Shown piece by piece: positions 2 through 6,212 of a DNA stretch of 6,212 nucleotides. The notes below the pieces were generated by a model. The model saw only the letters and a program-made list of their open reading frames with translations, did not search any database and was not told the DNA's origin. Source of the DNA: Okeania sp. (GTDB lineage: Bacteria; Cyanobacteriota; Cyanobacteriia; Cyanobacteriales; Microcoleaceae); the NCBI RefSeq assembly GCF_035285525.1, contig NZ_JAYKGW010000045.1, positions 1-6,212 on the forward strand, in the 5' to 3' direction. The translations under genes and the position numbers were made by a program. Position 1 is the stretch's first letter. Each line of letters starts with the position of its first letter.

Positions 2-823
2 ATTTTAGATTATTTTGGTGAAGTATTGCAGCCAGAATTAACTTTAGCTGATGCAATTAAACAAGGTGCTTTAGCTCGTTATCTTTATTATCCAGTTTTA
101 GTAGAATTGACTGAAGAGGAAAGTCGAAATTATGCAAAACTTACCTCTAAAATTGGTTGGGCATTATTATTATCAGAAAAAGAAAATGTAGAAATAGAAA
201 AAGAAGATTTAAAAGCTTTATTGATGCAGCGTTCCCGATTAATTGCTTCAGCAGCAAATAAATTAACAGCATTAAGAAAATTAATGGCAAGTCGTTTACA
301 AACAACTCATACTTTATTTTATTGTGGAGATGGTTCGGTAGAAACAGAAAATATTTCAAATTTACGACAAATGGAAGCGGTGGTAAAAATATTAGGTTCA
401 GAATTAGGTTATAGAGTTAATAGTTATATTGCGGAAACTCCGATTAAAAAAAGAGAGAAATTAAGACAACAATTTGAAAGTGGAGAGTTACAAGGTTTAG
501 TAGCAATTAATTGTTTAGATGAAGGGGTAGATATACCTGTAATTAAAAATGCAGTTATCTTAGCAAGTAGTCGAAATCCTCGACAGTTTATTCAGAGAAG
601 AGGTAGAATTTTACGACCTCATCCCAATAAGGAAAGAGCAACTTTATTTGATATGATTGTTTTGCCTCCAGATCTGGGTAGAAGTAGTTTAGAGGTAGAA
701 CGAAATTTGCTGAGAAAAGAGTTAAAAAGGTTCTTAGAATTTGCCGATTTAGCAGATAATGCTGGAGAAGCTAGAGTTAAGTTATTAAACATTCAAAAAA
801 GGTATGGATTATTAGATATTTGA
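2..823 (+). CDS. SF2 helicase, C-terminal (RecA2) half; ResIII/Helicase_C-type DEAD/DEAH-like helicase; 5' end lies outside the window
   Basis: The frame is open from nt 2 (ILDYFGEV...), so the TTG at 26 used by the ORF track is probably not the true start. The translation carries helicase C-terminal motifs: LFYCG (motif IV-like), LVAINCLDEGVDIP (motif V; DEGVDIP = 518-538) and QFIQRRGRILR (motif VI; QRRGRILR = 593-616). Stop TGA is at 821-823. Confidence 0.8.
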   Translation: MLDYFGEVLQPELTLADAIKQGALARYLYYPVLVELTEEESRNYAKLTSKIGWALLLSEKENVEIEKEDLKALLMQRSRLIASAANKLTALRKLMASRLQTTHTLFYCGDGSVETENISNLRQMEAVVKILGSELGYRVNSYIAETPIKKREKLRQQFESGELQGLVAINCLDEGVDIPVIKNAVILASSRNPRQFIQRRGRILRPHPNKERATLFDMIVLPPDLGRSSLEVERNLLRKELKRFLEFADLADNAGEARVKLLNIQKRYGLLDI

Positions 824-890: not shown

Positions 891-3014
891 ATGTCTCTAG
901 AATTACCAGAAGCAAATCCTAAAAACTTGTTAGATATTATTAAATATGCTGTGGAAGGAACAGTTGTTATTCCTGATTTTCAAAGATCTTTTGTTTGGAA
1001 AAAAGATGATATTCAAGATTTATTAACTTCTTTATTGCAGGGTTATTTTATCGGAATATTTTTGATGTTAGATACCTCTAGTAAAAACCCAATGTTTCCT
1101 TTTAGATTTGTGGAGGGAATAACAGATAAACCTAATGCTACAGACAATGTAAGGTTAGTTCTTGATGGTCAGCAACGCATTACTTCTCTATATTATGCAC
1201 TTTATGAACCTAATCAACCTCTAAAAGGGGCTAAAAATCCTTATCGTTTTTATTTACGTTTAGAGTCAGTTTTAGATAATGATTTAGAAAGTGCAGTGAT
1301 AGGTATATCTGAACGGGATAGCCGTAGAAGAAAAGAATATGATGAATTAGTAAAACAACACAAAGCCTTACCTTTTTCTCTATTGCGAGATTCTAATAGT
1401 TTTAATAAGTGGCTGTATCGAGAACAAGATATTTGGGAGGATAAACAACAAGAATTATTGATAAATATCCATGAAAGGCTCCATAAATTTATGGTTCCTG
1501 TTATTTCCTTATCTCCTGAAACAAGAGAAGAAGATATTGTCAATATTTTTGAGCGAATTAATCGTACTGGTGCTAGTCTTTCTCTTTTTGATTTGGCTGT
1601 AGCAAATATTTATAAAAAGGGAGTAAATTTACGAGATTTATGGCAGAAAGCTCAAAATAATTATCAGGAAGTTACAGATTTAATTAAACCAGAATTTTTA
1701 CTGAGACTAATTGCTTTGGGGCAAGCCATAGAACCAAAAAAAGGTAACTTATTAAAAATGACAAGATACATAGAAGGAGAATTATTTAAAAAGTTATGGC
1801 ATGAAGCAGTTAAGTCAATAGTAACAGCTTATCAAAGATTAATTAATGTGTATGGAGCCTTTGATTCTAAGTGGATTCCTTATACTACTTTAATTGTTCC
1901 TTTGGCTGCTTTATTAAATAAAATAAATCGAATTTCTGCTGGTGCTGAAGCTTATCAAAAGTTAGATTGTTTTTATTGGGGATGTATTTTAGGTCAGCGT
2001 TATGACAATGCTGTAGATAGCAAAATTCATTATGATTTTCAAAATGTTAGTGGATGGATAGATAATCAGGGAAATGCACCAGAATGGTTGCAAAAATTAT
2101 CTGTTCAAAGTTTTGATTTAAAGACTGAGGAAAGTTATACAACTTTATATAGAGGATTAATGGGATTAATTGCTTGTGAAGGTTCTAAAGATTTTTTAAC
2201 AGGGCAACCTGCAGAAATTAATAAATGTCAAGATGACCATATTTTTCCTAAGTCTAGGTATAGTGAAAAATATGATAATTTAGTTGATAGTATTCTGAAT
2301 CGAACTTTAATTTCTCAAGCAACTAATAGATGTAAAAGTAATAAACTTCCGGCGGATTTTTTAGATGATTGTTTGGCTAAACATGGTGGTAATAAAGAGC
2401 AGCTTTTAGAAACTTTAGCTAGTCATTTTATTGATGAGGATGGGTATGCAGCAATGCAAAATAATGATTTTATTCGTTTTATAAATTCTCGTCAGAAAGT
2501 TATGCAAAAAAAATTACAAGAAATTGTATCTTTAGCTGAACCTATTGAGGAGTTAGAAGTTGTTTTTGAAGATGAGGTGACATATTGGTTAACTCCAGTT
2601 GCTGCTACTGAGGAACGTTCTGCTTCTGAGCAAATTAAGTTTTTGGTTGGTGAAGAAAAGATTTATGCTTTTGGAGATAAAACTCCTGGTAGAAAAAGTC
2701 TTAAGTCTGGGGATAATATTTGTTTTTATGCTGCTGCTAAGGGTATTGTTGCTCATGCTTTAGTTAAAACTAAACCAGAAAAGTCGGCTCATCCTAAAAT
2801 TTTTAATTCTGATAGGTATCCTTGGGTTTTTGAGTTAGAAAAACCTTGTTTATATTTGGATAATCCTGTAGTTTTAGATGAAGATTTAAGGAATAAGTTA
2901 GATGCTTTTTTAGGGCGTAGCGATCGTTCTAATTGGTCATGGTTTGTTCAGGTTACTAGAAAAATTTCTGCCAATGATTTTGTAGTTTTGACTAGAGATT
3001 TTTATAAGGTATAA
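891..3014 (+). CDS. GmrSD-family (DUF262 + DUF1524) type IV restriction-like nuclease with an additional C-terminal EVE/PUA-like domain
   Basis: 707-aa ORF. DUF262 signatures: IPDFQRSFVW (aa 27-36), DGQQR (aa 92-96, nt 1164-1178) and FERINRTGASLSLFDL. DUF1524/His-Me finger-type signature: DDHIFPKS (His450 = nt 2238-2240) followed by LNRTLISQATNRCKSNK. About 145 further residues follow the nuclease domain. Stop TAA is at 3012-3014. Confidence 0.85.
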   Translation: MSLELPEANPKNLLDIIKYAVEGTVVIPDFQRSFVWKKDDIQDLLTSLLQGYFIGIFLMLDTSSKNPMFPFRFVEGITDKPNATDNVRLVLDGQQRITSLYYALYEPNQPLKGAKNPYRFYLRLESVLDNDLESAVIGISERDSRRRKEYDELVKQHKALPFSLLRDSNSFNKWLYREQDIWEDKQQELLINIHERLHKFMVPVISLSPETREEDIVNIFERINRTGASLSLFDLAVANIYKKGVNLRDLWQKAQNNYQEVTDLIKPEFLLRLIALGQAIEPKKGNLLKMTRYIEGELFKKLWHEAVKSIVTAYQRLINVYGAFDSKWIPYTTLIVPLAALLNKINRISAGAEAYQKLDCFYWGCILGQRYDNAVDSKIHYDFQNVSGWIDNQGNAPEWLQKLSVQSFDLKTEESYTTLYRGLMGLIACEGSKDFLTGQPAEINKCQDDHIFPKSRYSEKYDNLVDSILNRTLISQATNRCKSNKLPADFLDDCLAKHGGNKEQLLETLASHFIDEDGYAAMQNNDFIRFINSRQKVMQKKLQEIVSLAEPIEELEVVFEDEVTYWLTPVAATEERSASEQIKFLVGEEKIYAFGDKTPGRKSLKSGDNICFYAAAKGIVAHALVKTKPEKSAHPKIFNSDRYPWVFELEKPCLYLDNPVVLDEDLRNKLDAFLGRSDRSNWSWFVQVTRKISANDFVVLTRDFYKV
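2580..3011 (+). other. C-terminal EVE/ASCH-like (PUA-fold) putative modified-base reader domain of the GmrSD-like protein
   Basis: From aa 564: TYWLTPV ... LKSGDNICFYAAAKGIVAHALVKTKPE ... YPWVFELEKPCLYLDNPVVLDEDL ... RKISANDFVVL. This matches the EVE pattern: YWL start, GD-x-hFYH-like strand followed by G-I-V-hydrophobic, W-x-V-x-hydrophobic, and a C-terminal L-S/T-xx-F-xx-L. The assignment is by eye only. Confidence 0.45.
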
Positions 3015-3160: not shown

Positions 3161-3168
3161 GCGATCGC
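3161..3168. repeat. HIP1 (highly iterated palindrome 1) octamer GCGATCGC
   Basis: Perfect GCGATCGC, embedded in the 10-bp palindrome AGCGATCGCT (3160-3169). A 7/8 copy, GCGATCGT, lies at 2920-2927 inside the GmrSD-like gene. Confidence 0.6.
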
Positions 3169-3335
3169 TAATAATTCTTTATCAATAAATACCTATATTT
3201 TGATCTAAAAATTACTTAAAAAATATCAAAAATGACAGTTTAAATAAAACTCAATTCACTATAAAATATTGTCGAACCAGATTCAGTGTATTTCAGAAAG
3301 CTATCTCTATCATTTTTTTCTTTTTTTCCAAGTTT

Positions 3336-3377
3336 ACTCCTTCTTCCTTTTTCCTTCTTCCTTCTTACTTCTTACTT
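3336..3377 (+). repeat. Heptanucleotide tract, 6 units of consensus CTTCCTT, directly upstream of the 81-aa ORF
   Basis: ACTCCTT CTTCCTT TTTCCTT CTTCCTT CTTACTT CTTACTT, followed by AAATAAAA-ATG(3386). It is preceded by the pyrimidine run T7CT7CC (3313-3329). Confidence 0.85.
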
Positions 3378-3385
3378 AAATAAAA

Positions 3386-3631
3386 ATGACTTTAAAATAT
3401 TCAGATAAAGTAATCAAAGAAATATCAACTATTTTTGCTGAAAAGCATTCTAAATATAATCCTAAAACTCAAAATAAACTCAATAATATTCAAGAGCCAA
3501 TTACGACGGCTCCCCCAGAAGTAAAAAAAATTATTGCGCGAGTTTTACAATTAGAAAAAGACAGACTTTATAAAAAAACTCCTAGAATTAATGATGATAT
3601 TATCAAAATTATTAAAGAAGCAATTCAATGA
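3386..3631 (+). CDS. Hypothetical 81-aa lysine-rich protein. Its stop overlaps an ATPase-type start codon (ATGA).
   Basis: ATG 3386 is the first start after an in-frame TAA (3377-3379). There is no obvious SD. The stop TGA (3629-3631) overlaps ATG 3628 of the first copy of the ATPase start, an arrangement typical of translationally coupled operon partners. I recognise no family. Confidence 0.5.
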   Translation: MTLKYSDKVIKEISTIFAEKHSKYNPKTQNKLNNIQEPITTAPPEVKKIIARVLQLEKDRLYKKTPRINDDIIKIIKEAIQ

Positions 3632-3711
3632 AATTAATTTTAATTATTTTGTGTAATTTTCGACAATTTTACGGCAAAAGTCGAGAAATAGTTTTAGCAT
3701 CAGGGAAATAG
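3628..3711 (+). pseudogene. Truncated ATPase start, copy 0 (MKLILIILCNFRQFYGKSREIVLASGK*)
   Basis: 27 codons homologous to ATPase codons 1-27. TAG at 3709-3711 takes the place of Gln28. The ATG overlaps the small-ORF stop. Confidence 0.8.
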
Positions 3712-3717
3712 AGTTTT

Positions 3718-3745
3718 CTTACTTCTTACTTCTTCCTTTTCCCTT
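3718..3745 (+). repeat. Heptamer tract, 4 units
   Basis: CTTACTT CTTACTT CTTCCTT TTCCCTT. Confidence 0.85.
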
Positions 3746-3763
3746 AAATCAAGAAGCAATTCA

Positions 3764-3847
3764 ATGAAATTAATTTCAATTATTTTGTGTAATTTCTGGC
3801 AGTTTTATGGCAAAATATTACAAATAGTTTTGAAATCAGGGAAATAA
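3764..3847 (+). pseudogene. Truncated ATPase start, copy 1 (MKLISIILCNFWQFYGKILQIVLKSGK*)
   Basis: 27 codons plus TAA at 3845-3847. Confidence 0.8.
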
Positions 3848-3853
3848 AGTTTT

Positions 3854-3867
3854 CTTCCTTCTTCCTT
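3854..3867 (+). repeat. Heptamer tract, 2 units
   Basis: CTTCCTT CTTCCTT. Confidence 0.85.
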
Positions 3868-3885
3868 AAATCAAGAAGCAATTCA

Positions 3886-3969
3886 ATGAAATTAATTTCA
3901 ATTATTTTGTGTAATTTTCGGCAGTTTTATGGCAAAACTCCAGAAATAATCTTGGCATTGGGAAAATAG
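3886..3969 (+). pseudogene. Truncated ATPase start, copy 2 (MKLISIILCNFRQFYGKTPEIILALGK*)
   Basis: 27 codons plus TAG at 3967-3969. The variable part is of the same type as the genuine gene. Confidence 0.8.
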
Positions 3970-3975
3970 AGTTTT

Positions 3976-4018
3976 CTTAACTTCTTCCTTCTTCCTTCTT
4001 CCTTCTTCCTTCTTCCTT
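3976..4018 (+). repeat. Heptamer tract: one degenerate 8-mer followed by 5 perfect CTTCCTT
   Basis: CTTAACTT, then CTTCCTT x5 (3984-4018). Positions 3981-4018 are 38 nt of pure pyrimidine. Confidence 0.9.
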
Positions 4019-4036
4019 AAATAAAGAAGCATTTCA

Positions 4037-4120
4037 ATGAAACTAATTTCAATTATTTTGTGTAATTTTCGGCAGTTTTATGGCAAAATATTACAAATAG
4101 TTTTGAAATTAGGGAAATAA
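4037..4120 (+). pseudogene. Truncated ATPase start, copy 3 (MKLISIILCNFRQFYGKILQIVLKLGK*)
   Basis: 27 codons plus TAA at 4118-4120. It is in the same reading frame as the genuine ATPase ORF, since 150 nt equals 50 codons. Confidence 0.8.
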
Positions 4121-4126
4121 AATTTT

Positions 4127-4168
4127 CCTCCTTCTTCCTTCTTCCTTCTTCCTTCTTCCTTCTTCCTT
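4127..4168 (+). repeat. Heptamer tract: CCTCCTT followed by 5 perfect CTTCCTT
   Basis: Positions 4123-4168 are 46 nt of pure pyrimidine. The first unit, CCTCCTT, equals the core of the 16S rRNA 3'-end anti-SD sequence. Confidence 0.9.
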
Positions 4169-4186
4169 AAATTAAGAAGTAGTTCA

Positions 4187-6212
4187 ATGAAATTAATTTC
4201 AATTATTTTGTGTAATTTTCGTCAGTTTTATGGCAAAACTCCAGAAATAATTTTGGCATCAGGTAAACAAAATACAACAATTATTCATGGTAACAATGGT
4301 GCAGGTAAAACCACGATAATGAATGCTTTTACTTGGGTACTTTATGAAAAATTTAGTGCTGCTTTTGCAGCAGAAACTCAATTAGTAAATAAACGAGCAA
4401 TTACAGAAGCAAAACCAGGTCAAGCTATAGCTTGTTGGGTAGAAATTATGTTTGAACATGATAATAAACGTTATCAAATTAAACGTTTATGTCGAGCTTA
4501 TAGAAACGAAAAAAATCGAATTGAACATGGTAAAAGTGAGCTATATATGCAAATAGCTGGAGATGATGGACGTTGGTCTCCACCACCGGAACATCCTGAT
4601 GATATTGTTGGGAGAATTTTGCCAGAAAGTTTACATAGATATTTCTTTTTTGATGGGGAAAGAATTGAGTATATTTTTAGGGATAACCAGAAAAGTGAAA
4701 TTGCTGAAGCTACTAAAGAATTATTGGGAATTGAAGTATTAAATCGTTCTGTTAGACATTTAGGAGAAGCTAAAAAGTCTCTGGAAACTGATTTAAGATT
4801 GATTGGTAATCCTGAGACTAAAAAGTTATTGAAGGAAAAAAGTCAAGTTGAAAAGGAAATTGATAAATTATCAAAACGCCAAAAAGAAATAGACAAAGAA
4901 TTACAACATTATCGGGAATTTAAACGAGAAATTAGTAGTCGTTTATTGGATTTTAAAGGTGCAGAAGGTTTGCCTCAACAAAGAGATCAATTAAAAGTTC
5001 AGATTGGAGCAATTAGAGAACAAATAGTACAAGCAAATCAGGTTTTGAAAAGAGCTATATCAACTCGTGGTTATATGGTATTTTTATCAGAATCAATAGC
5101 AGAATTTCGAGAATTATTTGGTTATTTAAAAGAAAAAGGGGAGTTACTTACTGGAATTAATCGGCAGTTTATTCAACAGTTATTAGAGGCACAACTTTGT
5201 ATTTGTGGAACTGAATTAACTAAAGATTCGACTGGGAGAAAATTAGTAGAAAAATGGATGGAAAAAGTAGAGATTGCTGATGTTGAAGAAACTGCTATTA
5301 AAATGACTGTACAAATGGATGAAGTTGAGAAACAAGTAGTAGATTTTTGGGAGGAAGTTGATAGACAACAGGGAAATATAGAACAATTACGTTCTCAACT
5401 TTCCGGGATTGAAAATCAATTAGACATCGTTCAAAAAAAATTACGCAGTTATCCTAATGAGGATATTCAGAAGTTACAAAAAAGGTTAGATGAAATTGAA
5501 GTTAAGGTGGGAGATTTAAACCGGGAAACTGGTTCAAATAATTTACAGTTAGAAACTTTTAATCAACAAATTAAGGTTTTAGAGAAACAACTAGATCGCC
5601 AAAAAATGAATGAGGTAAAACAAGTTTTATGTCAAAGACGAATTGCTGCTACTCAAGATGCTATTCAGAGATTAAACGAAGTTAAGTTACGTTTAGAAAA
5701 ACAGTTTAGAGTTTCTTTGGAAAAACGGATACAAGAATTATTTTCGGAAATTTCTTTTACTCCTTATATTCCTCAACTTAATGAAAATTATGAGTTAACT
5801 TTAGTGGAAAATACTGGTGGTAAAAATTCTTTGGTTGCTGCTTCTACAGGAGAAAATCAAATTCTTAGTTTGGCGTTTATTGGTAGTATTATTGACCAGG
5901 TGAGAGAATGGAGTCAAAAAAATACTTTAATGGGTCCTGATAGTAGCACTTTTCCGATTGTTATGGATTCTCCTTTTGGCAGTTTAGATGAAATTTATCG
6001 ACGACAAATTGCTAAAAAAATTCCTCGATTAGCAAATCAATTAATTGTATTAGTAACTAAGACTCAATGGCGTGGTGAAGTTGCGGAAGAAATGGCTGAT
6101 TATATTGGTAGAGAATATGTTCTTTCTTATAATTCTCCAAAACCAGATTGTGAGGAAGATGCTATTGAGTTAGATGGTAAATCTTATGCTTTGGTAAAAC
6201 GTAGTCCGAATG
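4187..6212 (+). CDS. DndD-like / SMC-Rad50-like ABC ATPase with a long coiled-coil insert; 3' end lies outside the window
   Basis: My own translation gives 675 codons with no stop before the window edge. The gene is absent from the supplied ORF track. The N-terminus is MKLISIILCNFRQFYGK. Walker A is GNNGAGKTT (4289-4315). An FFFDGERIE motif is present. About 350 aa are heptad-like and rich in K, E, Q and L. The ABC signature-like ASTGENQILSLAF has STGE at 5843-5854. Walker B/D-loop is IVMDSPFGSLD (5957-5989). Confidence 0.85.
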   Translation, partial: MKLISIILCNFRQFYGKTPEIILASGKQNTTIIHGNNGAGKTTIMNAFTWVLYEKFSAAFAAETQLVNKRAITEAKPGQAIACWVEIMFEHDNKRYQIKRLCRAYRNEKNRIEHGKSELYMQIAGDDGRWSPPPEHPDDIVGRILPESLHRYFFFDGERIEYIFRDNQKSEIAEATKELLGIEVLNRSVRHLGEAKKSLETDLRLIGNPETKKLLKEKSQVEKEIDKLSKRQKEIDKELQHYREFKREISSRLLDFKGAEGLPQQRDQLKVQIGAIREQIVQANQVLKRAISTRGYMVFLSESIAEFRELFGYLKEKGELLTGINRQFIQQLLEAQLCICGTELTKDSTGRKLVEKWMEKVEIADVEETAIKMTVQMDEVEKQVVDFWEEVDRQQGNIEQLRSQLSGIENQLDIVQKKLRSYPNEDIQKLQKRLDEIEVKVGDLNRETGSNNLQLETFNQQIKVLEKQLDRQKMNEVKQVLCQRRIAATQDAIQRLNEVKLRLEKQFRVSLEKRIQELFSEISFTPYIPQLNENYELTLVENTGGKNSLVAASTGENQILSLAFIGSIIDQVREWSQKNTLMGPDSSTFPIVMDSPFGSLDEIYRRQIAKKIPRLANQLIVLVTKTQWRGEVAEEMADYIGREYVLSYNSPKPDCEEDAIELDGKSYALVKRSPN

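What the first reader, a model, noticed from the sequence alone, without database searches (positions are those of the whole stretch)
3628..4270. The decoy copies look like coding sequence, with three sequence types in an A-B-A-B order and mostly synonymous differences
Codons 18-27 fall into three types. Copy 0 reads SREIVLASGK. Copies 1 and 3 read ILQIVLK(S/L)GK. Copy 2 and the genuine gene read TPEIILA(L/S)GK. The alternation of types implies that a two-unit block (~275-300 nt) was duplicated as a higher-order repeat. All types keep the x-x-E/Q-I-I/V-L-A/K-x-G-K pattern expected for the strand leading to the P-loop. In codons 1-17, I count about 6 synonymous differences among the five copies: TTA/CTA at Leu3, TTT/TTC at Phe11, CGA/CGG/CGT at Arg12, CAA/CAG at Gln13 and TAC/TAT at Tyr15. 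Only 2 are non-synonymous (S5L in copy 0, R12W in copy 1). Dead fragments drifting freely should show the opposite bias. Either the 27-aa peptides are translated and selected, or the fragments were templated from distinct functional ATPase alleles by gene conversion or cassette-like replacement. The numbers are small, so this is only suggestive.
Basis: seen in the sequence. Interest (0 to 1): 0.65.

Follow-up and report, generated by a model that had tools for sequence, protein, structure and literature searches.

The report
Decaying tandem copies of pbeC start
Four truncated copies of the start of an anti-phage ATPase gene sit in tandem in front of the real gene in a marine filamentous cyanobacterium. 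Their "coding-like" synonymous differences most likely come from sequence exchange with working alleles, not from selection on 27-residue peptides or from a cassette system, so the feature is real but fairly ordinary.

Summary
The five copies, the three sequence types and the 6 synonymous / 2 non-synonymous count in codons 1-17 are all in the sequence. The order is A-B-C-B-C, not A-B-A-B. Over all 27 codons the count is 13 S : 11 N.

The locus is a Pbe defence operon: pbeA, an inserted GmrSD-like gene, pbeB and pbeC. Each repeat unit is pbeC codons 1-27, plus the pbeB leader with its heptamer tract, plus the last bases of pbeB. It is a segmental duplication that was later amplified. The same junction occurs in four Okeania/Dapis genomes (3-8 copies), while 22 other close loci have one copy.

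The synonymous excess is real. Synonymous sites vary about three times more than the unit's own non-coding parts (p=0.0006); non-synonymous sites vary at the non-coding rate. Decoy synonymous states match states in functional alleles. Variants found only in decoys are 4 S : 16 N and hit residues that are invariant or ≥90% conserved in 121 PbeC proteins. No full-length allele carries SREIVLAS or ILQIVLKS.

Best reading: neutral pseudo-5' ends that exchange sequence with selected functional copies. Selected peptides and cassette replacement are not supported.

The parts
2..823 (+). 3' end of pbeA (helicase)
   Evidence: PADLOC PbeA E=2.8e-91 and Pfam Helicase_C.
891..3014 (+). GmrSD_N + HNH gene inserted between pbeA and pbeB. 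It is context, not part of the repeat.
   Evidence: Pfam GmrSD_N 5e-31 and HNH_4 2e-5. The same insertion is present but broken in L001. It is absent in L019 and L060-L064.
3330..3385 (+). pbeB leader with a heptamer tract (CCTTCTT/ACTTCTT)n followed by TTAAATAAAA. This is the source sequence of the inter-copy spacers.
   Evidence: TRF finds 3338-3377, period 7. The spacers align with this leader and with the pbeB ATGA at 29/32 identity against L015, L061 and L062.
3386..3631 (+). pbeB (81 aa). Its TGA stop overlaps the ATG of copy 0.
   Evidence: The 81-aa ORF is conserved with the ATGA overlap in all close relatives. Its position between pbeA and pbeC matches PMC6459918. It has no HMM hit.
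3615..3711 (+). Unit 0: last 13 nt of pbeB plus pbeC' codons 1-27 plus TAG (type A, SREIVLASGK).
3712..3750 (+). Spacer 0: GAGTTTTCTT, heptamers, TTAAATC (derived from the pbeB leader).
3751..3847 (+). Unit 1: 13-nt pbeB remnant with AAGAAG, plus pbeC' codons 1-27, plus TAA (type B, ILQIVLKSGK; R12W).
3848..3872 (+). Spacer 1 (about 2 heptamers).
3873..3969 (+). Unit 2: remnant plus pbeC' codons 1-27 plus TAG (type C, TPEIILALGK).
3970..4023 (+). Spacer 2 (5.4 heptamers, 3981-4018).
4024..4120 (+). Unit 3: remnant plus pbeC' codons 1-27 plus TAA (type B, ILQIVLKLGK).
4121..4173 (+). Spacer 3 (6.3 heptamers, 4125-4168).
4174..6212 (+). Last unit, which is the real gene: 13-nt remnant with AAGAAG, then intact pbeC (ATG at 4187, open to the end of the window).
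   Evidence: PADLOC PbeC E=0, 1062 bits, covering model positions 1-648. There are no stops in 675 codons. dN/dS against relatives is 0.13-0.18.

Best explanation
The array is a locus-specific minisatellite made of dead 5' ends of pbeC.

Origin (inferred from junction sequences):
1. A tandem duplication copied the segment running from the pbeB leader, through pbeB, to pbeC codon 27.
2. In the downstream copy, pbeB was deleted between its own ATGA and a GATGA near its 3' end (microhomology). This left a unit of about 150-190 nt.
3. Unequal crossing-over amplified the unit, and slippage changed the number of heptamers.
4. The window's lineage lost a further 24 nt, and a two-unit block (types B and C) was duplicated.

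Evolution: the truncated copies decay neutrally. They also keep exchanging sequence with functional pbeC 5' ends, both by gene conversion or unequal crossover with the real copy in the same genome and by homologous recombination with alleles of other strains. Because functional alleles differ almost only at synonymous sites, this exchange loads the decoys with synonymous differences and makes them look like coding sequence.

Likely consequence (inferred, untested): pbeC loses its ATGA translational coupling to pbeB and must initiate on its own copy of the AAGAAG...ATG region. The gene clearly stays functional.
For: Anatomy and origin:
- The spacers align with the pbeB leader plus ATGA at 29/32 identity, and then with the last 33 nt or so of pbeB.
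- The window's units lack exactly 24 nt relative to those of the relatives.

Single origin and variable copy number:
- The identical junction GGGAAA|T(G/A)GAGTTTTCTT is present in L001 (3 copies), L009 (8), L011 (3) and L014 (3), in two pbeC clades. 22 of the 27 close loci have a single copy.
- L009 copies 0-2 are identical and copy 3 differs only by one extra heptamer, which indicates recent amplification.

Neutral decay:
- Decoy-only variants are 4 S: 16 N, against 29 S: 11 N in functional alleles (Fisher p=0.0002).
- The decoys carry S5L, N10K/D, R12W/H, P19R/L/S, E20Q and G26E, all at positions invariant or at least 90% conserved in 121 PbeC proteins.
- The non-synonymous rate equals the non-coding rate of the unit (0.17 vs 0.24 per site, p=0.59).

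Exchange with functional alleles:
- The synonymous rate is 0.75 per site, about three times the non-coding rate (p=0.0006). Selection on peptides cannot produce that.
- Variants shared by decoys and functional alleles are 18 S: 1 N.
- Decoy synonymous haplotypes lie closer to real alleles than randomly placed synonymous changes would (sum of minimum distances 47 vs 64.5 +/- 3, p<0.0002).
- L001 decoys share 57T (found in no other allele compared) and also 15C, 21C and 69A with their own real gene. 21T is a decoy-lineage marker that appears in a real gene only in the window.
- pbeB and pbeC identities are discordant. For L009 and L011, pbeB is 87% identical and pbeC 96-98%, so strains recombine at this junction.

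pbeC remains functional: it is intact, with dN/dS 0.09-0.18, in the array-bearing genomes.

Genomic background:
- These genomes are full of 100-280-nt tandem arrays and heptamer tracts. L001 also triplicates the 3' end of pbeA.
- T. erythraeum has a tandem array in which each repeat holds a duplicated part of the adjacent gene (PMC4143802).
Against: - The numbers are small and the copies are not independent.
- The split into 'shared' and 'private' variants is biased, because nearly every synonymous site is polymorphic among functional alleles. A new synonymous mutation in a decoy will therefore often look 'shared'.
- The haplotype test assumes equal mutability of synonymous sites.
- Non-synonymous sites of codons 1-17 vary less than the non-coding parts (2/42 vs 8/34, p=0.036). 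I attribute this to homogenisation with the selected copy, but that is an inference.
- The cluster of 8-10 changes within 19 nt of type B has no identified donor and is unexplained.
- Persistence of the array in two clades could mean that it is useful.
- No expression data were available.
- MAG assemblies may collapse or mis-count repeats.
Confidence: 0.7

Rival explanations
1. The array is an adaptive expression device. Each unit carries the pbeB leader (pyrimidine tract plus TTAAAT) and the pbeC ribosome-binding region. Copy number and heptamer number would then tune, or phase-vary, PbeC output relative to PbeB, through extra promoters or translation enhancers or through the loss of coupling.
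For: - The array persists with the same junction in two pbeC clades, and pbeC stays under purifying selection behind it.
- Copy number differs between strains at 3, 3, 3, 5 and 8.
- Heptamer counts differ between spacers.
- The leaders are unusually unstructured (z up to +1.9), as expected for good initiation regions.
Against: - The consensus scan found no sigma-70-like promoter in any unit on the + strand.
- There is no RNA structure beyond chance and no Rfam family.
- The units decay: the pbeB ATG and 24 nt are lost in the window, and the stop at codon 28 is present or absent.
- Most relatives do without an array.
- Similar arrays with no obvious role are common in these genomes.
Confidence: 0.15
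2. The 27-aa peptides are translated and kept by selection, for example as modulators of PbeC.
For: - Every copy keeps AAGAAG, the ATG and an open frame to codon 27.
- Codons 1-17 have few non-synonymous changes.
Against: - ORF length is not conserved. The relatives read TGG at codon 28 and end 39-59 codons in, depending on the heptamer count.
- Invariant residues are replaced.
- The overall non-synonymous rate equals the non-coding rate, and it is the synonymous rate that is elevated.
- The peptide lacks the P-loop.
Confidence: 0.04
3. The copies are silent cassettes that replace the N-terminal segment of PbeC by gene conversion, diversifying the protein (pilS-like).
For: There are three sequence types in codons 18-27, and there is evidence for exchange between the copies and the real gene.
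Against: - Types A and B occur in none of 27 genomic alleles, 121 cluster representatives or 21 partial proteins.
- Homology ends at codon 27, so the variable segment has no 3' flank for a conversion tract.
- A crossover in the conserved 5' part leaves the real gene's own codons 18-27 in place.
- Arrays in the relatives have no such types.
Confidence: 0.03
4. Assembly artefact: reads from a single pbeB-pbeC junction were mis-assembled into a repeat.
For: Short-read MAGs often mishandle repeats. The identical units in L009 cannot be counted reliably.
Against: - The window's copies differ from each other at 5-14 of 94 positions and have different spacers.
- The same junction was assembled independently in four other genomes.
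Confidence: 0.03

Closest known systems
Tandem repeat array next to Tery_0080 in Trichodesmium erythraeum IMS101 (Pfreundt et al. 2014, PMC4143802)
   Same: - It comes from the same cyanobacterial lineage.
- It is a head-to-tail array in which every repeat holds a duplicated terminal part of the adjacent gene.
- The authors interpret it as a product of duplication events.
   Different: - Those repeats are 736-973 bp, contain the 3' part of the gene on the opposite strand, and are very highly transcribed as ncRNA.
- Here the units are 122-151 bp, contain the 5' part plus the upstream gene's leader, and nothing is known about their expression.
Mycobacterial interspersed repetitive units (MIRU-VNTR; Supply et al. 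1997, as described in PMC3184786 and PMC12548453)
   Same: - These are tandem units of variable copy number lying between co-oriented genes of an operon.
- They contain short ORFs whose ends overlap the neighbouring start or stop codons. Here the pbeB TGA overlaps the ATG of copy 0.
   Different: - MIRUs are dispersed at about 40-50 loci and may be mobile. This unit is made from the locus's own sequence and was found only here.
- The last unit here is not coupled to the downstream gene by a 4-nt overlap.
Concerted evolution of gene fragments or pseudogenes by gene conversion with a functional paralogue (general principle, from my own knowledge)
   Same: Non-functional copies show an apparent 'purifying selection' signature because they receive sequence from a selected copy.
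   Different: Here the homologous tract is only about 94 nt, and exchange also seems to involve alleles of other strains.
STRR-type heptanucleotide tandem repeats of filamentous cyanobacteria (from my own knowledge: Mazel et al. 1990)
   Same: Heptamer tracts lie in non-coding DNA and vary in number. They are abundant in the related loci, at 1.8-5.9 per 10 kb in most Okeania/Dapis loci.
   Different: The unit here is CCTTCTT/ACTTCTT, not one of the classical STRR sequences. Here it is part of a gene leader that was duplicated along with coding sequence.
PbeABCD phosphorothioate-linked defence (Xiong et al. 2019, PMC6459918)
   Same: The host operon matches: PbeA helicase, a small PbeB, the DndD/SMC-like PbeC and a small PbeD.
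   Different: No repeat array is described for Pbe loci. This operon also carries an inserted GmrSD-like gene, and no dnd genes are visible in the window.

Membership tests
PbeABCD defence operon (the host locus) | PbeA DEAD/ResIII-type helicase | tested here: met
   PADLOC PbeA 2.8e-91 on the C-terminal 273 aa; Helicase_C.
PbeABCD defence operon (the host locus) | PbeC DndD/SMC-like ATPase | tested here: met
   PADLOC PbeC E=0, 1062 bits, full model length; AAA_23 and SMC_N.
PbeABCD defence operon (the host locus) | Small PbeB directly upstream of pbeC | tested here: inconclusive
   The 81-aa ORF is conserved with a 4-nt overlap in all relatives, but it has no HMM hit. It is assigned by position and size only (66 aa in PMC6459918).
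PbeABCD defence operon (the host locus) | Small PbeD downstream; phosphorothioate (dnd) partner genes | not testable with these tools
   These lie beyond the window's end. Relatives have a 154-aa gene after pbeC with PF27807 DNA_S_mod_dnd_assoc_4 or DUF4332. dnd genes were not looked for.
Locus-derived tandem duplication / minisatellite | Head-to-tail units built from the flanking sequence, with a traceable junction | tested here: met
   TRF and repeat finder. Unit = pbeC 1-27 + pbeB leader/ATGA + pbeB 3' end.
Locus-derived tandem duplication / minisatellite | Copy number differs between related genomes | tested here: met
   Copy numbers of 1, 3, 3, 3, 5 and 8. Caveat: these are short-read assemblies.
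Locus-derived tandem duplication / minisatellite | Sequence exchange among the units and with the functional copy (concerted evolution) | tested here: inconclusive
   Genome-specific synonymous states are shared by decoys and the real gene, and the haplotype test gives p<0.0002. Site-specific mutability was not excluded.
Silent-cassette gene conversion systems (pilE/pilS type) | Cassette variants appear in expressed alleles | tested here: not met
   No ILQIV, LQIVL, QIVLK, SREIV or REIVL in 121 representatives, 27 genomic alleles or 21 partial proteins.
Silent-cassette gene conversion systems (pilE/pilS type) | Homology on both sides of the variable segment | tested here: not met
   Homology stops at codon 27 (GGNAAA). 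After that, the decoys continue into the spacer and the real gene into QNTTIIHG.
Diversity-generating retroelement target | Differences confined to adenines of a template repeat | tested here: not met
   Differences between types B and C fall on C, T, G and A alike (read).
MIRU-like intercistronic repeat | The same unit dispersed at many loci of the genome | tested here: inconclusive
   The unit was found only at the pbeB-pbeC junction in the 770 kb or so of fetched loci, and the junction-pattern scan of metagenomes returned no contig with pbeC 5' homology. Whole genomes were not scanned.
Regulatory leader peptide / uORF | Conserved peptide length and sequence across relatives | tested here: not met
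   Codon 28 is a stop in the window and in L009 copy 6, but TGG in the other 12 decoys. ORF ends shift with the heptamer count.

The most novel reading that the evidence does not exclude
The array is maintained because it is useful. It would be a recombination-driven rheostat or phase switch that sets PbeC dosage relative to PbeB, with copy number and heptamer number as the variables. Alternatively, it would be a set of homologous 'landing pads' at the pbeB/pbeC boundary that promotes swapping of defence-gene modules between strains.
Probability: 0.1. Interest if true: 0.65.

Novelty: new member of a known kind. Interest (0 to 1): 0.3.

Why it matters
It is a clean worked example of how dead gene fragments can mimic coding-sequence evolution. 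The signal is an excess at synonymous sites imported from selected alleles, not a deficit at non-synonymous sites. Comparing both classes with the repeat's own non-coding parts tells the two apart.

It also documents a recurrent structural polymorphism, reconstructable step by step, inside an anti-phage Pbe operon of bloom-forming marine cyanobacteria (relatives of Okeania, Dapis and Trichodesmium). In these genomes tandem arrays that include gene ends appear to be common. If copy number affects PbeC expression, it would be a new route to heterogeneity in phage defence, but nothing here shows that.

Tried and rejected
- **Source contig.** The GmrSD-like protein is not on record. The best relative is 92% identical (Dapis sp. 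BLCC M172), so the organism is known only approximately.
- **Metagenome scan** with the junction pattern GAAATRRAGTTTTYTTNCTTCTT. It returned 20 contigs, none with pbeC 5' homology.
- **Viral contigs**, scanned for codons 9-17: no match.
- **Donor for the type B segment.** There was no exact match and no match with up to 6 mismatches in 59 loci. No donor was needed for type A, which is 4 changes from ordinary alleles.
- **Protein search with a 27-aa query.** A 56-aa chimera found only short partial proteins, none of decoy type.
- **DGR-type mutagenesis.** Rejected, because the changes are not adenine-specific.
- **Promoter in each unit.** There is no consensus hit on the + strand.
- **Structured RNA or a thermometer-like CUUCUU:AAGAAG hairpin.** It appears in some minimum-energy folds, but the energies are not better than shuffles (z from -0.8 to +1.95). 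Rfam gave nothing above threshold.
- **TSS data for the IMS101 orthologue.** The supplementary tables are not held.
- **Simple 'fossil snapshot' model** (decoys copied at different times with no later exchange). Rejected on reasoning: it predicts about 2.3 non-synonymous changes per synonymous change in codons 1-17, the opposite of what is seen.


Full report
**What is in the window.** The window is AT-rich (about 30% GC). Its closest relatives are Dapis, Okeania and Trichodesmium genomes, with PbeC 84-92% identical.
- It encodes the 3' end of a PbeA helicase (1-823; PADLOC 2.8e-91).
- Next comes a GmrSD_N + HNH gene (891-3014).
- Then an 81-aa ORF (3386-3631) in the position of pbeB.
- Last is a DndD/SMC-like ATPase that matches PADLOC PbeC over the whole model (ATG at 4187; E=0).
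- Pbe is a phosphorothioate-linked defence system in which the small PbeB, PbeC and PbeD are all required (PMC6459918).
- Relatives have a 154-aa pbeD-like gene after pbeC.

**The observation.** Between pbeB and pbeC lie four truncated copies of the pbeC start, with ATGs at 3628, 3764, 3886 and 4037.
- Each copy is open for 27 codons and closed by TAG or TAA.
- The types run A-B-C-B-C. Copies 1 and 3 differ at 5 of 94 positions and copies 2 and 4 at 7 of 94, against 14 of 94 for copies 1 and 2. A two-unit block duplication (273 and 301 nt) is therefore supported.
- The repeat is not purely coding. It begins 13 nt before each ATG, and these bases are the last bases of pbeB (AAGAAGCAATTCA|ATGA). 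The units are separated by GAGTTTTCTT, then a (CCTTCTT/ACTTCTT)n heptamer tract, then TTAAAT.

**The same array elsewhere.** Among 38 genome loci encoding relatives, four others carry the array with the same junction (GGGAAA|TGGAGTTTTCTT...). These are L001 Dapis M172 (3 copies), L009 Okeania SIO3B5 (8), L011 Okeania SIO2B3 (3) and L014 Okeania SIO2C9 (3).
- Counting six further contigs, 22 of the 27 close loci have one copy with the ATGA overlap.
- The array-bearing genomes fall in two pbeC clades.
- In the relatives the unit keeps more of pbeB (GATGATATTCTCAAAATTATTAAAGAAGCAGTGCA|ATG).
- In the relatives codon 28 is TGG in 12 of 13 decoys (TGA in L009 copy 6). Most decoy ORFs therefore run into the spacer and end at different places depending on the heptamer count. 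The 27-aa length is peculiar to the window.

**Origin of the unit.** The spacer aligns with the leader directly upstream of pbeB, including the pbeB start. The spacer reads TTACTTCTTCCTTCTTCCTTAAATTAAGATGA and the leader of L015, L061 and L062 reads TTACTTCTTCCTTCTTACTTAAATAAAAATGA (29/32 identity). After that it continues with pbeB's last 33 nt or so. From this I infer four steps:
1. A tandem duplication of the segment from the leader, through pbeB, to pbeC codon 27.
2. Deletion of pbeB in the downstream copy between two ATGA microhomologies.
3. Amplification by unequal crossing-over, together with heptamer slippage.
4. In the window's lineage, loss of a further 24 nt (AAGATGATATTCTCAAAATTATTA), visible as a clean gap.

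Steps 1-4 are read from the junctions. None was observed happening.

**Is the synonymous bias real?**
- In codons 1-17 there are 8 events, 6 of them synonymous. Under neutrality P(>=6) is 0.001-0.036 depending on the transition bias, and 0.024 with mutation types preserved.
- Pairwise Nei-Gojobori dN/dS between window copies over all 27 codons is 0.05-0.43.
- The bias is therefore more than chance, although the sub-region was picked by eye and the numbers are small.

**What causes it?** The informative comparison is with the repeat's own non-coding columns.

| Class of site | Events / sites | Rate per site | Against non-coding |
|---|---|---|---|
| Non-coding | 8 / 34 | 0.24 | reference |
| Non-synonymous | 11 / 63.7 | 0.17 | p=0.59 |
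| Synonymous | 13 / 17.3 | 0.75 | p=0.0006 |

The anomaly is an excess at synonymous sites, not a deficit at non-synonymous ones. Selection on peptides cannot raise the synonymous rate above the neutral rate. Import of sequence from functional alleles can, because those alleles differ from one another almost only synonymously (dS 0.1-0.5, dN/dS 0.09-0.18).

Further support comes from 17 decoys and 21 functional alleles:
- Variants seen in both classes are 18 S: 1 N. Variants private to decoys are 4 S: 16 N. Functional alleles give 29 S: 11 N (Fisher p=0.0002).
- Decoy synonymous-site haplotypes lie much closer to existing functional haplotypes than the same number of randomly placed synonymous changes would (47 vs 64.5 +/- 3, p<0.0002).
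- L001's decoys share 15C, 21C, 57T and 69A with L001's own real gene, and 57T occurs in no other allele compared.
- 21T marks decoys in four genomes and occurs in a real gene only in the window.
- pbeB and pbeC give discordant identities between the same genomes, so strains recombine around this junction.

Two caveats apply. The shared/private split is biased, because nearly all synonymous sites are polymorphic among functional alleles. The haplotype test assumes uniform mutability.

**Are the decoys constrained as protein?** No.
- In 121 PbeC cluster representatives, S5, N10 and R12 are invariant, and P19, E20 and G26 are at least 90% conserved.
- The decoys carry S5L, N10K, N10D, R12W, R12H, P19R/L/S, E20Q and G26E.
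- None of the motifs ILQIV, LQIVL, QIVLK, SREIV or REIVL occurs in those 121 proteins, in 27 genomic alleles or in 21 partial proteins.

**Cassette replacement is mechanically unlikely.** Homology ends at codon 27. A crossover in the conserved 5' part would leave the real gene's own codons 18-27 in place.

**What remains unexplained.** Type B packs 9-10 differences into the last 30 nt, against 4-5 in the first 64 nt (p=0.01 and 0.001). No donor was found, and the changes are not adenine-specific, so a DGR is excluded. I suggest that the 5' 64 nt are homogenised more often than the edge of the homology. That would also explain why non-synonymous sites of codons 1-17 vary less than the non-coding parts (p=0.036). 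This is an inference.

**Function.**
- No sigma-70-like promoter lies in the units.
- No Rfam family matches.
- No RNA structure exceeds chance.
- pbeC is intact and under purifying selection behind every array.
- The one predictable effect is that pbeC is no longer translationally coupled to pbeB and must use its own AAGAAG...ATG copy.
- These genomes are full of 100-280-nt arrays and heptamer tracts. L001 also triplicates the 3' end of pbeA. T. erythraeum has a known array containing partial copies of the adjacent gene (PMC4143802).
- I therefore rate a neutral, unstable minisatellite as most likely (0.7), and an adaptive expression rheostat as the main rival (0.15).

**Verdict.** The 'selected peptides' and 'cassette alleles' readings are not supported. 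'Templated from functional alleles' survives as ordinary gene conversion and recombination into dead fragments. This is a new member of a known kind, of modest interest.

Noticed in passing
window 891-3014: A GmrSD_N + HNH (type IV restriction-like) gene sits between pbeA and pbeB. Its last 150 aa or so match no Pfam family. The same insertion is present in L001 but is split into two ORFs. Other relatives have different or no inserts here, so the pbeA-pbeB gap looks like an insertion hot spot.
   Followed up: partly
L001 6450-7208: The last 79 codons of pbeA plus 10 nt are tandemly triplicated (253 nt x 3, 99-100% identical). All three copies carry an in-frame TGA where the window has TTA. This is a second gene-end duplication in the same operon, and pbeA is probably truncated in that genome.
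   Followed up: partly
L001 12492-13232; L002 12111-12502; L007 3211-3479: A tandem array of about 149-nt period begins just after the pbeC stop in three relatives. It contains a GCGATCGC (HIP1) site and its content is unknown.
   Followed up: no
L009, L011, L014 and L001 arrays (e.g. L011 10260-10330): In the relatives each unit keeps the pbeB start codon fused out of frame to the pbeB 3' end. This gives an ORF of about 20 codons (MIFSKLLKKQCNEINFNYLV) that reads across the next pbeC ATG, including the real one. The window has lost it through the 24-nt deletion.
   Followed up: partly
pbeB vs pbeC in L009, L010, L011, L014, L015: pbeC is 95-99% identical within this Okeania clade, but pbeB is only 87-97% identical. 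L009's pbeB is closer to the Dapis clade. This indicates recombination breakpoints between the two genes.
   Followed up: partly
L010 about 9740-9775: The start of pbeB is duplicated over 16 nt (ATGACTTTCAAATACAATGACTTTCAAA).
   Followed up: no
L016 pbeC: There are two in-frame stops near the 3' end of pbeC (the first at codon 628 after the repeat region) in Trichodesmium MAG_R03. This is either a pseudogene or an assembly error.
   Followed up: no
window 3161-3168 and upstream regions of relatives: There is a HIP1 palindrome GCGATCGC in the pbeB upstream region. The pbeB leaders of the relatives carry different heptamer families (CCCTACT, ATTATCC, CCTTCTT) at the same position.
   Followed up: no
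window 3239-3267: The best promoter-like site upstream of pbeB is TTTAAA-17-TAAAAT. It lies in a stretch conserved in L001 and L007, and it is only a consensus match.
   Followed up: no
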